This document shows positions 12,001-21,000 of a stretch of 64,000 bases of DNA, piece after piece. Numbering within the stretch: the first letter of the stretch is position 1; each line of letters opens with the position of its first letter. The position numbers were made by a program. The stretch lies in the NCBI RefSeq assembly GCF_041248615.1, contig NZ_CP158426.1; one strand, 5' to 3'. This stretch comes from Escherichia coli (GTDB lineage: Bacteria; Pseudomonadota; Gammaproteobacteria; Enterobacterales; Enterobacteriaceae).

Positions 12001-15000
12001 TTGAGGAAAAATTTCCACTGAAAGAATTAAATAATCCAGAGCATGACAGTTACGCCATTAGTGAAAAGAGTCACGGCAGAGAAGAAATCCGTCTTCATAT
12101 TGTTTGCGATGTCCCTGATGAACTTATTGATTTCACGTTTGAATGGAAAGGACTGAAGAAATTATGTGTGGCAGTCTCCTTTCGGTCAATAATAGCAGAA
12201 CAAAAGAAAGAGCCAGAAATGACGGTCAGATATTATATCAGTTCTGCTGATTTAACCGCAGAGAAGTTCGCCACAGCAATCCGAAACCACTGGCACGTGG
12301 AGAATAAGCTGCACTGGCGTCTGGACGTGGTAATGAATGAAGACGACTGCAAAATAAGAAGAGGAAACGCCGCAGAATTATATTCAGGGATACGGCACAT
12401 CGCTATTAATATTTTAACGAATGATAAGATATTCAAGGCAGGGTTAAGACGTAAGATGCGAAAAGCAGCCATGGGCAGAAACTATCTCGCGTCAGTCCTT
12501 GCGGGGAGCGGGCTTTCGTAATCTTGCCCTGCGTTAACCTCCCCTCCTTGACACCACGCTTTTGTCTACATTCTACGCAAACGGCAACTTTTATAACCAG
12601 TGTAAAAATAACGTGCCGCAATAGTCATACCTATTAATGGTAAAAAGCTGTCACAATTCATAAAAAACCTTAATATACGCCACCCTAAACATAACCAGCG
12701 TTAATGTAAGGTTTTTGTGTGGACTGGCTTCTTGATGTTTTTGCTACCTGGCTCTACGGCTTAAAAGTAATCGCGATAACGTTAGCGGTCATCATGTTCA
12801 TCAGCGGGCTGGACGATTTTTTTATTGATGTCGTCTACTGGGTACGCCGCATTAAACGCAAGTTGAGTGTTTATCGCCGCTACCCGCGAATGAGTTACCG
12901 CGAACTGTATAAACCAGATGAAAAACCGTTAGCGATTATGGTTCCGGCGTGGAATGAAACGGGCGTCATCGGCAATATGGCCGAGCTGGCGGCGACCACG
13001 CTCGACTATGAAAACTATCATATCTTTGTTGGCACCTACCCCAACGACCCCGATACTCAGCGTGATGTTGACGAAGTGTGCGCTCGCTTCCCGAATGTGC
13101 ATAAGGTAGTCTGCGCGCGTCCTGGCCCCACCAGCAAAGCCGACTGCCTGAACAACGTGCTGGACGCCATCACCCAGTTTGAGCGTAGCGCCAATTTCGC
13201 TTTTGCTGGTTTTATTCTGCATGACGCCGAAGACGTAATTTCACCGATGGAATTGCGTCTGTTCAACTATCTGGTCGAGCGTAAAGATCTGATTCAGATC
13301 CCGGTGTATCCGTTCGAACGCGAATGGACGCACTTCACCAGCATGACTTACATTGATGAGTTTTCAGAACTGCATGGCAAAGATGTTCCGGTGCGTGAAG
13401 CCCTCGCCGGACAAGTGCCCAGCGCAGGCGTCGGCACCTGTTTCAGCCGCCGCGCCGTGACCGCACTGTTAGCTGACGGTGACGGTATTGCTTTCGACGT
13501 GCAGAGTCTTACTGAAGATTACGACATTGGTTTCCGCCTGAAAGAAAAAGGTATGACGGAAATTTTTGTCCGTTTTCCGGTGGTGGACGAAGTCAAAGAA
13601 CGCGAGCAGCGTAAATTTTTACAGCACGCGCGGACGTCAAACATGATCTGCGTGCGCGAATATTTCCCCGATACCTTTTCGACTGCGGTTCGACAAAAAT
13701 CTCGCTGGATCATCGGCATTGTTTTCCAGGGCTTTAAAACCCACAAATGGACCTCCAGCCTGACGCTGAACTACTTTCTCTGGCGCGACCGCAAAGGGGC
13801 AATCAGTAACTTTGTCAGCTTCCTCGCGATGCTGGTGATGATCCAGCTTTTGCTGTTGCTGGCGTATGAAAGTTTGTGGCCCGATGCCTGGCATTTCCTT
13901 TCTATTTTCAGCGGCAGCGCATGGTTAATGACTCTGCTGTGGCTAAACTTTGGCTTGATGATTAACCGCATCGTGCAGCGGGTGATTTTCGTTACTGGCT
14001 ACTACGGCCTGACGCAGGGGCTGCTATCTGTCCTGCGTCTTTTCTGGGGCAACCTGATTAACTTCATGGCCAACTGGCGCGCGTTAAAACAGGTACTTCA
14101 ACACGGCGATCCACGTCGTGTCGCGTGGGATAAAACAACGCATGACTTCCCCAGCGTGACTGGCGATACCCGCTCGTTGCGTCCGTTAGGTCAAATCCTG
14201 CTGGAAAATCAGGTCATCACTGAAGAACAACTCGATACAGCACTGCGTAATCGCGTCGAAGGTCTACGCCTGGGCGGTTCAATGCTGATGCAGGGGCTGA
14301 TTAGCGCCGAACAGCTGGCACAGGCGCTGGCAGAGCAAAACGGCGTGGCGTGGGAGTCGATCGACGCCTGGCAGATCCCTTCATCACTGATTGCCGAAAT
14401 GCCGGCCTCCGTGGCGCTGCATTATGCAGTACTGCCGCTGCGTCTGGAAAATGATGAGTTAATTGTCGGCAGTGAAGATGGTATTGACCCGGTTTCGCTG
14501 GCGGCCCTGACGCGTAAAGTCGGACGCAAAGTGCGTTACGTCATTGTTCTGCGGGGACAAATTGTCACGGGGTTACGCCACTGGTATGCGCGCCGACGCG
14601 GTCACGATCCGCGGGCAATGTTGTACAATGCGGTTCAGCATCAGTGGCTCACGGAACAGCAGGCCGGTGAAATCTGGCGGCAATATGTGCCGCATCAGTT
14701 CCTGTTCGCCGAAATACTGACCACACTCGGTCATATTAATCGTTCAGCAATTAACGTGTTGTTATTGCGCCATGAACGTAGTTCTCTGCCGCTCGGCAAG
14801 TTTTTGGTCACCGAAGGCGTTATCAGCCAGGAAACGTTGGATCGCGTCCTGACAATTCAACGCGAATTACAAGTTTCGATGCAATCACTATTACTCAAAG
14901 CAGGTTTAAACACAGAACAGGTTGCGCAACTGGAGTCCGAAAATGAAGGAGAATAACCTTAATCGCGTCATCGGATGGTCTGGTTTACTGCTGACGTCTT

Positions 15001-18000: not shown

Positions 18001-21000
18001 AAAACCGTGATAGTCAGGTTACCGATACCCAGTGGCAGGGGCTGATGAGTCAGTTACGTTTGCAAGGCTTCGATACCCTGGTTTTGCAATGGACCCGTTA
18101 CGGCGATGCATTCACCCAGCCAGAACAGCGCGCGTTATTGTTTAAGCGTGCAGCAGCTGCGCAACAGGCTGGCCTGAAGCTGATTGTCGGGCTGAATGCC
18201 GATCCGGAATTTTTTATGCACCAGAAACAGTCATCCGCGGCGCTGGAAAGCTATCTTAATCGCCTGCTGGCTGCCGATCTCCAGCAAGCCAGATTATGGA
18301 GCGCCGCGCCTGGCGTAACGCCGGATGGCTGGTACATCAGCGCGGAAATTGACGACCTGAACTGGCGCAGCGAAGCCGCCCGTCAACCGTTGCTGACATG
18401 GTTAAACAACGCGCAGCGGTTGATTAGCGATGTTTCAGCAAAACCGGTTTATATCAGTAGTTTTTTCGCCGGAAACATGTCGCCCGATGGCTATCGCCAA
18501 CTGCTGGAACAAGTTAAAACAACCGGCGTTAATGTCTGGGTACAGGATGGCAGCGGCGTGAATAAACTTACCGTTGAACAGCGTGAACGTTATCTACAGG
18601 CCAGCGCCGATTGCCAAAGTTCCGCCCCTGCCAGCGGCATTGTTTATGAACTGTTTGTCGCCGGCAAAGGTAAAACCTTTACAGCGAAACCGAAACCGGA
18701 TGCAGAGATCGCCTCGCTGTTAGCGAAACGTTCCTCTTGCGGTAAAGACACGCTCTATTTCTCTCTGCGCTATTTGCCCGTTGCGCACGGCATTCTCGAG
18801 TATTAAATCCCCTCCAGGTAAGTCGGGTACGACCTGGCTTACCTCTTTCGCTCTCGTCAGAATTCCATCAAGATTAATTGCTAAAAAGCGTGCTAAAGAA
18901 AGAAGATCGTTATCGGCGAACGGGCCGATCACTCATGCAGGAAGCATAGATCCTTTGAGCGGAGTTTCTGATATCTGAGGAGTGCGAAATGCAATTGAGC
19001 AGCAGTGAACCTTGCGTAGTGATCCTGACCGAAAAAGAGGTAGAGGTAAGCGTCAATAACCATGCCACGTTTACCCTTCCGAAAAATTACCTGGCCGCCT
19101 TCGCGTGCAACAATAACGTCATTGAACTCTCAACGTTAAATCACGTATTAATCACCCACATCAACCGCAACATCATCAACGATTATCTGTTGTTTTTAAA
19201 TAAGAACTTAACCTGCGTAAAGCCCTGGTCGCGGCTGGCTACCCCGGTTATCGCTTGTCATAGCCGTACACCGGAAGTGTTCCGGCTAGCCGCCAACCAC
19301 AGCAAGCAGCAACCCAGCAAACCCTGCGAAGCGGAGTTGACGCGCGCATTGCTTTTTACCGTATTGTCTAACTTTCTTGAGCAATCGCGGTTTATTGCCC
19401 TACTGATGTATATCTTACGCAGCAGCGTCCGCGACAGCGTCTGCCGCATTATTCAAAGCGATATTCAGCATTACTGGAATCTGCGAATTGTCGCCAGTTC
19501 GCTATGTTTAAGCCCCAGCCTGCTCAAAAAGAAATTAAAAAACGAAAATACCAGCTATAGCCAGATTGTCACAGAGTGTCGTATGCGTTACGCCGTACAG
19601 ATGTTATTGATGGATAACAAAAATATCACTCAGGTAGCGCAATTATGTGGCTATAGCAGCACGTCGTACTTTATCTCTGTTTTTAAGGCGTTTTACGGCC
19701 TGACACCGTTGAATTATCTCGCCAAACAGCGACAAAAAGTGATGTGGTGAAGGGCAAAGCGGAAACGGATAAGACGGGGATAAATGAAGAAGAAATGGCG
19801 CGCCCTGCAGGATTCGAACCTGCGGCCCACGACTTAGAAGGTCGTTGCTCTATCCAACTGAGCTAAGGGCGCGTTGATACCGCAATGCGGTGTAATCGCG
19901 TGAATTATACGGTCAACCCTTGCTGAGTCAATGGCTTTTGATCTGGTTGCTGAACAAGTGAACGACCGCGTCTGATTTTCTGATTTATTTCGCTATAGCG
20001 GCAAACAAACGTACACCGCTGCGCGTCTGAATCAAGAAAACCCGTATTTTCATGTATCAAAGTACAATTTCCCGCCCTAACGGAAAATTGTCCGATCCTA
20101 TGAGACTGGTAACTATGAAACCAACGTCGGTGATCATTATGGATACTCATCCTATCATCAGAATGTCTATTGAAGTTCTGTTGCAAAAAAACAATGAATT
20201 GCAAATTGTCCTGAAAACGGATGATTATCGCATAACCATCGATTATCTCCGAACCCGTCCTGTTGATTTAATTATTATGGATATAGACTTGCCCGGAACA
20301 GACGGTTTTACCTTCCTGAAAAGGATCAAACAAATCCAGAGCACAGTGAAAGTATTATTTTTATCATCGAAATCAGAATGCTTTTATGCTGGCAGAGCGA
20401 TACAAGCTGGTGCTAACGGTTTTGTCAGTAAATGCAATGATCAGAATGATATTTTTCACGCCGTTCAGATGATCCTCTCCGGATACACTTTTTTCCCCAG
20501 CGAAACGCTCAACTATATAAAAAGCAATAAATGCAGTACGAATAGTTCAACGGTCACGGTGCTATCTAATCGTGAAGTGACCATATTACGTTATCTGGTT
20601 AGCGGATTATCCAATAAAGAAATTGCCGATAAGTTATTACTTAGCAATAAAACAGTTAGTGCGCATAAATCTAATATTTATGGCAAGCTAGGTTTGCATT
20701 CAATTGTAGAGCTTATCGACTACGCCAAATTATATGAATTAATATAATATTAATTATAATTGATCATAAATATCGCATCCGCTTTCGCCACACCTGGCTG
20801 AACACCGCTGGCTAACGCTCGATAATTGGCAAAAAAGTTTAGTGTGACATTGCCATTTGCATCTACTTCCTCAGTCGGGCTCGCCTCCCCCAGTGCGAGC
20901 CGGGAGCGATCGCTATTACGTAATTCGATGGCGACGGTTTGTGCCATTGCGGGATCATCCAGAGCCAGCAGGTTGGCATCAGATGCCGGCGTTCCCGTAA

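What the first reader, a model, noticed from the sequence alone, without database searches (positions are those of the whole stretch)
12719..18806. nfrB-nfrA-ybcH: c-di-GMP-responsive glycosyltransferase and outer-membrane TPR protein (phage N4 receptor system)
NfrB combines a family-2 glycosyltransferase with a C-terminal region carrying repeated MshEN-like motifs (LGQILLENQVITEEQLDTAL, RLGGSMLMQGLISAEQLAQALAEQ, LGKFLVTEGVISQETLDRVLTIQ). NfrA is a 990-aa secreted TPR protein and the three genes are tightly coupled. Published work links this operon to a c-di-GMP-dependent exopolysaccharide needed for phage N4 adsorption. Its position next to a mobile Rhs/H-repeat element is noteworthy for phage-receptor regulation.
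Basis: partly seen in the sequence, partly recalled or inferred. Interest (0 to 1): 0.35.

Follow-up and report, generated by a model that had tools for sequence, protein, structure and literature searches.

The report
Known E. coli nfrBA-ybcH phage-N4 receptor operon
This is the ordinary, intact E. coli nfrB-nfrA-ybcH operon, a well-studied c-di-GMP-switched sugar-polymer secretion machine that phage N4 uses to attach. The mobile element next to it is a common strain-to-strain difference that leaves the operon's own upstream DNA untouched.

Summary
nfrB (12719-14956, 745 aa), nfrA (14943-17915, 990 aa) and ybcH (17916-18806, 296 aa) are intact on the + strand. They are 99.7, 98.6 and 97.3 % identical in protein to E. 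coli K-12, and they are coupled by a 14-nt overlap and a 0-nt gap. All three quoted NfrB motifs are present. The interpretation matches published experiments (PMC8669469, PMC8669472), so the system is already known.

The idea that the neighbouring H-repeat/Rhs element matters for regulation gains no support:
- The ISAs1 element ends near 12534.
- The 142 bp directly upstream of nfrB are identical to K-12, whose whole cusS-nfrB spacer is 149 bp.
- The same ISAs1-nfrB junction occurs in 2476 of 5426 complete E. coli genomes.
- An Rhs locus between nfrB and cusS was catalogued in 2009.

One point goes beyond the papers I read. The third quoted motif belongs to a second, family-conserved MshE-type tandem c-di-GMP motif (aa 662-714) in the NfrB tail. 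It passes the curated model on its own, and its predicted fold superimposes on c-di-GMP-bound PilF/MshE. In E. coli its first half is degenerate, and its function is untested.

Interest is low.

The parts
12719..14956 (+). nfrB: inner-membrane processive family-2 glycosyltransferase with a C-terminal c-di-GMP receptor region (745 aa, GTG start)
   Evidence: ORF. 743/745 aa identical to K-12. NCBIfam NF008411 equivalog at 1331 bits. High-confidence AF2 model (pLDDT 88.6), with BcsA, hyaluronan synthase and chitin synthase as the closest folds.
12926..13864 (+). GT2 catalytic domain of NfrB (aa 70-382). It holds D169, D172, E266/D267 and Q326-R329-W330, the residues of the DxD, TED and QxxRW signatures.
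   Evidence: Pfam PF13632/PF13641. These residues are invariant or nearly invariant in 35 family members. D169A, D267A and W330A abolish N4 plating in K-12 (PMC8669469).
14183..14338 (+). MshEN module 1: tandem 24-residue c-di-GMP motifs (aa 489-512 and 517-540).
   Evidence: NCBIfam NF053729 c-di-GMP_motif over aa 489-540 (66.4 bits for the whole protein, 54.4 for a fragment holding only module 1). Sequence matches to MshE, PilB and PilF N-domains over aa 487-625. G491L and G519S impair N4 infection.
14342..14602 (+). MshEN C-subdomain (aa 542-628), an alpha/beta fold
   Evidence: Pfam PF05157 over aa 542-628. AF2 secondary structure E571-610. Whole MshEN domain TM 0.70-0.75 to 5htl and 8pdk.
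14702..14860 (+). Second MshEN_N-type tandem motif in the NfrB tail (aa 662-685, 5-residue spacer, aa 691-714). A further half-repeat follows at about aa 720-743.
   Evidence: NF053729 hits the tail fragment alone at 47.8 bits (cut-off 38), E 9e-13, aa 665-714. A profile of 28 homologues' tails hits MshE 5htl at 3.8e-12 and PilF at 2e-34. Conserved across the family. AF2 pLDDT 91, and the top Foldseek hits are c-di-GMP-bound PilF-GSPIIB/MshE at rmsd 1.2-1.8 A over 56 columns.
14943..17915 (+). nfrA: outer-membrane protein with a signal peptide, a periplasmic TPR region and a C-terminal beta-barrel (NfrA_C). It is the export pore and the terminal N4 receptor (990 aa).
   Evidence: 976/990 aa identical to K-12. 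NF007302 at 1883 bits. Pfam NfrA_C at 1.7e-67 and TPR_19/14/8. TPR matches in PDB. The N-terminus MKENNLNRVIGWSGLLLTSLLSTSALA/DN was read by eye as a signal peptide.
17916..18806 (+). ybcH: DUF4434 periplasmic auxiliary protein (296 aa) with a hydrophobic N-terminus
   Evidence: 288/296 aa identical to K-12. Pfam DUF4434 at 1e-68. NF007404 at 518 bits. No solved relative by sequence.
12577..12718 (+). Native nfrB upstream region, 142 bp, 100 % identical to K-12. This is almost all of K-12's 149-bp cusS-nfrB spacer.
   Evidence: Alignment and exact-match count.
12535..12576 (.). Island-specific spacer between the ISAs1 right end and the K-12-shared upstream region
   Evidence: Homology to other ISAs1 copies stops at about 12534. 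K-12 homology starts at 12577.
11237..12534 (+). ISAs1-family (H-repeat) insertion element in the same orientation as nfrB. The transposase CDS is 11385-12521. It is a neighbour, not part of the operon.
   Evidence: Pfam DDE_Tnp_1 + DDE_Tnp_1_assoc. NF033564 at 412 bits. Terminal inverted repeat 11234-11243 / 12525-12534. The boundaries are approximate.

Best explanation
The region is the intact chromosomal nfrB-nfrA-ybcH operon of Escherichia coli, a synthase-dependent exopolysaccharide secretion system.

NfrB sits in the inner membrane. Its cytoplasmic family-2 glycosyltransferase domain polymerises a sugar, proposed in the literature to be N-acetylmannosamine supplied by WecB. It does so only when its C-terminal MshEN domain has bound c-di-GMP, which is supplied locally by the diguanylate cyclase DgcJ. 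NfrA is exported by a signal peptide. It bridges the periplasm with TPR repeats and forms the outer-membrane barrel through which the polymer leaves. YbcH is a periplasmic helper.

Phage N4 first binds the secreted glycan and then NfrA.

Shown here:
- gene integrity and near-identity to K-12;
- every catalytic and c-di-GMP-binding residue that the two papers mutated is unchanged, because the only NfrB differences from K-12 are at aa 292 and 415;
- the translational coupling;
- the fold.

Taken from published K-12 experiments: c-di-GMP binding (Kd about 1 uM), the DgcJ dependence, and the requirement for N4.

Inferred: the system behaves the same way in this strain.

The vgrG/Rhs/ISAs1 island upstream is a common insertion/deletion polymorphism between cusS and nfrB that leaves the operon's own 142-bp upstream region intact.
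For: - ORFs and coordinates.
- Identity to K-12, the overlap and the motif positions.
- Pfam and NCBIfam equivalog hits above the curated cut-offs.
- RefSeq annotation of matching genomes as nfrB, nfrA and ybcH.
- MshEN sequence matches to solved MshE, PilB and PilF domains.
- A full-length AF2 model whose nearest folds are BcsA and other processive GT2 synthases, plus c-di-GMP-bound MshEN domains.
- Published experiments in K-12: PMC8669469, PMC8669472 and the review PMC10211494.
- Upstream region identical to K-12 over 142 bp.
- The ISAs1-nfrB junction is in 2476 of 5426 complete genomes and the cusS-nfrB junction is in 2326.
- An Rhs locus between nfrB and cusS is listed as conserved locus 4 (PMC2935791).
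Against: - Nothing in the sequence argues against it.
- Function in this particular strain is inferred, not measured.
- NfrA carries 14 and YbcH 8 amino-acid differences from K-12. Their effect on N4 binding is unknown.
- An O-antigen, if this strain makes one, could mask the receptor regardless of the operon (established knowledge, not tested here).
- No recognisable sigma-28 consensus was found upstream, although the operon is reported to be FliA-dependent. The promoter itself therefore remains unmapped.
Confidence: 0.93

Rival explanations
1. In this strain nfrBA-ybcH is transcribed wholly or partly from within the co-oriented ISAs1/H-repeat element, by read-through of the transposase transcript or from an outward promoter. 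The mobile element would then reset phage-receptor expression.
For: - The transposase gene is on the same strand and stops 197 bp before nfrB.
- No terminator-like hairpin was found on the + strand between 12521 and 12719.
Against: - The 142 bp upstream of nfrB are identical to K-12, so nearly all of the short native spacer, where any promoter of its own would lie, is retained.
- No sigma-70-like promoter passing the scan lies at the IS right end. The only TTGACA (12548) has a poor -10 element.
- The arrangement is not special to this strain. It occurs in 46 % of complete E. coli genomes and is a catalogued Rhs site.
- IS transposase genes are normally very weakly expressed (general knowledge).
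Confidence: 0.08
2. Two-site regulation. The conserved second MshEN_N-type tandem motif (aa 662-714) is a second c-di-GMP-binding site, or a dimerisation or DgcJ-docking module derived from one. NfrB would then not be regulated through a single MshEN domain as currently drawn.
For: - It passes the curated c-di-GMP_motif model on its own.
- The family profile matches MshE, PilF and PilB binding motifs at E 4e-12 to 2e-34.
- Motif positions are conserved almost as well as in module 1 in 35 homologues, including Q24 appearing only in the second half-motif.
- The predicted four-helix fold superimposes on c-di-GMP-bound PilF/MshE.
- In MshE the 53-residue N-subdomain alone holds the ligand (PMC5013675).
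- The protein used for the published Kd (aa 414-745) contains both modules.
Against: - In E. coli the first half-motif is degenerate: LFA instead of RLG, and T, H, H at other key positions. It fails the relaxed motif of PMC5013675 at five positions.
- Degenerate GSPII domains such as PilF GSPII-A are reported not to bind c-di-GMP (abstract of PMC12002112).
- G491L in module 1 alone already has the most profound effect on N4 plating, so module 2 cannot substitute for it.
- The Foldseek E-values for the small domain are not significant by themselves.
Confidence: 0.25
3. The operon is a decaying remnant in this strain, a receptor lost under phage pressure.
For: Phage-receptor genes are frequent targets of inactivation (general knowledge). 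Two IS elements lie immediately upstream.
Against: - All three ORFs are full length without stops or frameshifts.
- NfrB differs from K-12 at only 2 of 745 residues, neither of them a catalytic or binding position.
- The IS elements lie outside the operon and outside its 142-bp upstream region.
Confidence: 0.02

Closest known systems
E. coli K-12 NfrB-NfrA-YbcH (Nfr) exopolysaccharide system / phage N4 receptor (Junkermeier & Hengge 2021; Sellner et al. 2021)
   Same: Same genes in the same order, with the same 14-nt nfrB/nfrA overlap. Protein identity is 99.7, 98.6 and 97.3 %. The 142-bp upstream region is identical and envY is the same downstream neighbour.
   Different: Upstream neighbour: K-12 has cusS 149 bp away, whereas this strain has a vgrG/Rhs/IS3/ISAs1 island between cusS and nfrB. 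Downstream, this strain lacks the DLP12 prophage (with ompT and appY) at argU.
Bacterial cellulose synthase BcsA-BcsB-BcsC
   Same: An inner-membrane processive GT2 synthase activated by c-di-GMP, coupled to an outer-membrane TPR + beta-barrel exporter. BcsA is the best structural match to the NfrB model.
   Different: BcsA senses c-di-GMP through a PilZ domain, whereas NfrB uses MshEN-type motifs. Sequence identity is only about 14 %. The substrate is different, and there is no BcsB-like subunit in the operon.
MshE / PilB / PilF GSPII (MshEN) c-di-GMP receptor domains of type IV pilus and type II secretion ATPases
   Same: The 53-residue tandem 24-residue motif and the four-helix N-subdomain.
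   Different: There the domain is N-terminal to an ATPase. Here it is C-terminal to a glycosyltransferase. NfrB also carries a second N-subdomain-only copy without the C-subdomain.
PgaCD-PgaA poly-GlcNAc system
   Same: A synthase-dependent, c-di-GMP-activated exopolysaccharide system with a TPR + barrel outer-membrane porin. NfrA was modelled on PgaA and BcsC in PMC8669472.
   Different: In Pga, c-di-GMP binds at the PgaC-PgaD interface and there is no MshEN domain (established knowledge, not tested here).

Membership tests
NfrB (c-di-GMP-activated glycosyltransferase, NCBIfam NF008411) | Full-length match to the curated equivalog model above its cut-off | tested here: met
   1331.1 bits against a cut-off of 1170, covering aa 7-728. 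743/745 identity to K-12 NfrB.
NfrB (c-di-GMP-activated glycosyltransferase, NCBIfam NF008411) | Processive GT2 active-site signatures DxD, TED and QxxRW | tested here: met
   D169, D172, E266, D267, Q326, R329 and W330 are present and invariant or nearly invariant in 35 homologues. These are the same residues mutated in PMC8669469.
NfrB (c-di-GMP-activated glycosyltransferase, NCBIfam NF008411) | MshEN domain with tandem 24-residue c-di-GMP motifs | tested here: met
   Pfam MshEN at 3.8e-14. NF053729 at 66.4 bits against a cut-off of 38. L490, G491, L505, L509, L518, G519 and L537 are unchanged.
NfrB (c-di-GMP-activated glycosyltransferase, NCBIfam NF008411) | Actual c-di-GMP binding and c-di-GMP-dependent polymer synthesis | not testable with these tools
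   Known for the K-12 protein (Kd about 1 uM; PMC8669469). Inferred here from 99.7 % identity.
NfrA (phage N4 outer-membrane receptor / EPS porin, NF007302) | Full-length equivalog match, NfrA_C barrel domain, TPR region and N-terminal signal peptide | tested here: met
   1883.5 bits against a cut-off of 1223. NfrA_C at 1.7e-67 and TPR families. The signal peptide was judged by eye from the translation, with no predictor run.
YbcH (DUF4434, NF007404) | Full-length equivalog match, encoded directly after nfrA | tested here: met
   518.4 bits against a cut-off of 344. The ATG at 17916 follows the nfrA TAA.
Nfr system as phage N4 receptor | Loss of the operon abolishes N4 adsorption and plating | not testable with these tools
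   Shown in K-12. It needs plating on this strain.
ISAs1 family insertion sequence (H-repeat element) | ISAs1-type DDE transposase with terminal inverted repeats | tested here: met
   NF033564 at 411.8 bits against a cut-off of 70. Pfam DDE_Tnp_1_assoc + DDE_Tnp_1. A 10-bp terminal inverted repeat at 11234-43 / 12525-34. Other genomic copies end at about 12534.
MshEN_N 53-residue c-di-GMP-binding domain (second copy, aa 662-714) | Two 24-residue motifs RLGxxhhxxGhhxxxxLxxxLxxQ joined by a 5-residue spacer | tested here: inconclusive
   The spacer is exactly 5 residues. The second half-motif (aa 691-714) fits the relaxed motif of PMC5013675. The first half (aa 662-685) fails it at five positions in E. 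coli, although it is canonical in many homologues. The curated HMM is passed at 47.8 bits against a cut-off of 38. Ligand binding is not testable here.

The most novel reading that the evidence does not exclude
NfrB-family synthases carry a second, previously undiscussed MshE-type c-di-GMP module at their extreme C-terminus (E. coli aa 662-714, plus an extra half-repeat). If it binds c-di-GMP, or mediates dimerisation or DgcJ docking, activation of the Nfr polysaccharide synthase would be a two-site process rather than the single-MshEN switch in current models. The published Kd for NfrB(414-745) would then be a composite value.
Probability: 0.25. Interest if true: 0.4.

Novelty: already known. 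Interest (0 to 1): 0.1.

Why it matters
As it stands, this is a correct annotation of a textbook-level locus and adds nothing new about phage N4 reception.

Two small points are of practical use:
- Roughly half of sequenced E. coli carry a T6SS-type vgrG/Rhs/ISAs1 island between cusS and nfrB without any change to the nfrB upstream region. Strain differences in N4 sensitivity should therefore not be attributed to this island without evidence.
- The NfrB tail contains a conserved second MshEN-type tandem motif that published mutagenesis has not touched. This is a cheap, testable lead for anyone studying how c-di-GMP activates this synthase.

Tried and rejected
- **Sigma-28 promoter scan.** I scanned 12450-12730 for TAAAGTTT-N10-12-GCCGATAA because the operon is reported to be FliA-dependent. 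The best score was 10/16, which is typical of random 280-bp windows from this sequence. No promoter could be assigned.
- **Sigma-70 and terminator scan of 11000-13000.** Nothing on the + strand near the IS end or upstream of nfrB passed the scan. Counts were at shuffle level. A looser scan found only TTGACA at 12548 with a poor -10 element.
- **Literature search for an nfrB transcription start site.** It found only a genomic-SELEX table listing a weak RNAP-holoenzyme peak in the nfrB-cusS spacer. This is not decisive.
- **Rfam scan of 11000-20500.** Only argU tRNA was found. There is no riboswitch or sRNA upstream of nfrB.
- **PDB sequence search with YbcH.** No relatives were found.
- **Pfam DUF4388 hit in the NfrB tail.** It is below the gathering score when the tail is tested alone (14.6 against 25 bits). 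I rejected it in favour of the MshE-type motif model.
- **Pseudogenisation by the neighbouring IS elements.** Rejected, because the ORFs and the upstream region are intact.
- **Search for newer work on the N4 glycan receptor.** It turned up no structure of NfrB or NfrA and no revision of the model.

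
Full report
**What is there**

The window is E. coli chromosome. A 12-kb query around the finding matches 5425 of 5426 complete E. coli genomes, and the best hit is 99.9 % identical.

Three co-oriented ORFs occupy exactly the reported span:
- nfrB: 12719-14956, GTG start, 745 aa.
- nfrA: the mechanical ORF begins at TTG 14922. The start annotated in RefSeq and K-12 is ATG 14943, which gives 990 aa.
- ybcH: 17916-18806, 296 aa.

None has an internal stop. Against K-12 MG1655 the proteins are 743/745, 976/990 and 288/296 identical. 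nfrA overlaps nfrB by 14 nt, and the ybcH ATG follows the nfrA stop codon directly. The 14-nt overlap is the same as that described for K-12.

**Family assignment**

- Pfam finds a family-2 glycosyltransferase (aa 70-382) and an MshEN domain in NfrB. It finds TPR repeats and the NfrA_C domain in NfrA, and DUF4434 in YbcH.
- The NCBIfam equivalog models for NfrB, NfrA and YbcH are all passed well above their curated cut-offs.
- NfrB aa 487-625 match the solved c-di-GMP-binding N-domains of MshE, PilB and PilF.
- A full-length AlphaFold2 model has mean pLDDT 88.6 and pTM 0.86. Its nearest solved folds are bacterial cellulose synthase BcsA, followed by hyaluronan and chitin synthases. The MshEN part superimposes on c-di-GMP-bound MshE and PilF-GSPIIB.

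**How it works**

Steps marked "published" come from K-12 experiments.

- NfrB(414-745) binds c-di-GMP specifically, with a Kd of about 1 uM (published).
- GT active-site mutants (D169A, D267A, W330A) and MshEN mutants (G491L most strongly, G519S partially) impair phage N4 plating (published).
- Of the 12 diguanylate cyclases, only DgcJ is required, and it binds NfrB (published).
[quoted passage not shown] This suggests a ManNAc polymer (published).
- NfrA is the TPR + 16-strand barrel exporter and the terminal receptor, and YbcH is an auxiliary periplasmic protein (published).
- The operon is weakly expressed, post-exponential, higher at 37 C and FliA-dependent (published).

The NfrB allele here differs from K-12 only at aa 292 (V/A) and 415 (I/V). 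Position 292 lies in a loop that the model predicts only with low confidence (aa 291-306, pLDDT below 50). Every residue tested in those papers is therefore preserved. I infer, but cannot show, that the system works the same way in this strain.

**The neighbourhood claim**

Upstream of nfrB lies an ISAs1-family (H-repeat) element. Its transposase gene is at 11385-12521 on the + strand. Its right end is near 12534, judged from a terminal inverted repeat and from where other genomic copies stop matching.

Before it come an IS3-family element (9652-10925, - strand) and the distal part of a vgrG - DcrB-like - Rhs island with orphan Rhs C-terminal modules. In island-bearing genomes this island sits between cusS and nfrB. 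K-12 lacks it and has cusS 149 bp from nfrB.

The right break-point is at 12576/12577, so the 142 bp immediately upstream of the nfrB GTG are identical to K-12. The left break-point lies inside the last few codons of cusS.

A 400-bp probe across the ISAs1-nfrB junction is covered at 80 % or more in 2476 of 5426 complete genomes. The equivalent K-12 cusS-nfrB probe is covered in 2326. Jackson et al. 2009 already list "nfrB / cusS" as conserved Rhs locus 4.

The adjacency is therefore real, but it is an old, common, catalogued polymorphism that leaves almost all of the short native spacer in place.

I found no sigma-70-like outward promoter at the IS end and no terminator-like hairpin on the + strand between the transposase stop and nfrB. 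Weak read-through cannot be excluded, but nothing supports it. I also could not locate a sigma-28 consensus in the 142 bp, so the promoter remains unmapped by sequence.

**The one point beyond the papers I read**

The first two peptides are the canonical tandem pair (module 1, aa 489-540). The third is not part of that domain.

Evidence that it belongs to a second module:
- Tested on its own, the tail fragment aa 654-745 passes the curated NCBIfam c-di-GMP_motif model at 47.8 bits against a cut-off of 38 (E 9e-13). The match covers aa 665-714 against profile positions 4-53 of 53. Extending the register to profile position 1 gives a second tandem pair: aa 662-685, a 5-residue spacer, and aa 691-714.
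- I collected NfrB homologues at 23-54 % identity from a 1.8-billion-protein library. Most carry this distal pair, often in a more canonical form than E. coli, and some carry a third half-repeat.
- Across 35 family members the motif positions of module 2 are conserved almost as well as those of module 1. Both modules share the asymmetry that Q at position 24 appears only in the second half-motif.
- A profile of 28 tails hits MshE (5htl, residues 7-61, E 3.8e-12), T. thermophilus PilF (E 2e-34) and PilB.
- The tail folds with pLDDT 91 into the short-long-short-long helix pattern. Its best Foldseek matches are the c-di-GMP-bound PilF-GSPIIB and MshE domains, at rmsd 1.2-1.8 A over about 56 columns. 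The E-values for so small a domain are not significant alone.
- In MshE the 53-residue N-subdomain alone holds the ligand.

Evidence against a working second site in E. coli:
- The first half-motif reads LFA...T...H...H and fails the relaxed published motif at five positions.
- Degenerate GSPII domains such as PilF GSPII-A are reported not to bind (abstract seen).
- G491L in module 1 alone has the strongest effect on N4 plating.

The three Nfr papers I read describe a single MshEN domain, and the two experimental papers mutated only module 1. I cannot exclude that domain databases or other papers already note the second copy. I rate a functional role at about 0.25.

**Verdict**

The regulatory significance of the H-repeat neighbour is not supported. 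The system is already known, and interest is low (0.1).

Noticed in passing
window 1-12576: This is the distal part of a T6SS-type vgrG/Rhs island inserted between cusS and nfrB. It contains the C-terminal end of the main Rhs gene (runs off the left edge to 2303), a small downstream ORF (2308-2784), an orphan Rhs core gene (2903-5233) followed by its own small ORF (5239-5763, annotated start), a PAAR fragment (about 7573-7872), and an Rhs C-terminal fragment (8432-9100) followed by a DUF4304 gene (9112-9681). Its layout is that of an array of displaced toxin/immunity modules.
   Followed up: partly
window 9652-10925 (- strand): An IS3-family element (orfA/orfB with a programmed frameshift in the RefSeq annotation) is inserted at the 3' end of the DUF4304 gene. 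Close relatives such as NZ_OW967178 lack it and have a 179-aa DUF4304 protein, against 189 aa here.
   Followed up: partly
L002 3670-3710 versus K-12 (outside the window, left of it): The left break-point of the island lies inside the last few codons of cusS. CusS has a different C-terminal tail and length in island-bearing strains (1449-nt gene, 482 aa) than in K-12 (1443-nt gene, 480 aa).
   Followed up: partly
window 18989-20747: envY (18989-19750) is followed directly by argU tRNA-Arg(UCU) (19796-19872, - strand) and fimZ. The DLP12 cryptic prophage, which in K-12 sits here carrying ompT and appY, is absent from this strain.
   Followed up: partly
window 12577-12718: The operon is reported to be FliA (sigma-28) dependent, but the conserved 142-bp upstream region contains no better match to the sigma-28 consensus than random windows do. 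The dependence may be indirect, or the promoter may be atypical.
   Followed up: partly
ISAs1-nfrB junction in other genomes (hits H18-H20): Some genomes, including an O157:H7 strain, carry about 70 extra bases somewhere within the 400-bp junction probe. The match spans 468-473 bp instead of 400. I did not examine what the insert is.
   Followed up: no
window 17916-18806 (ybcH): YbcH (DUF4434) has no solved relative by sequence. The literature calls it a scaffold or auxiliary protein. I did not test whether it is instead a periplasmic glycan-processing enzyme, as found in other synthase-dependent systems.
   Followed up: no
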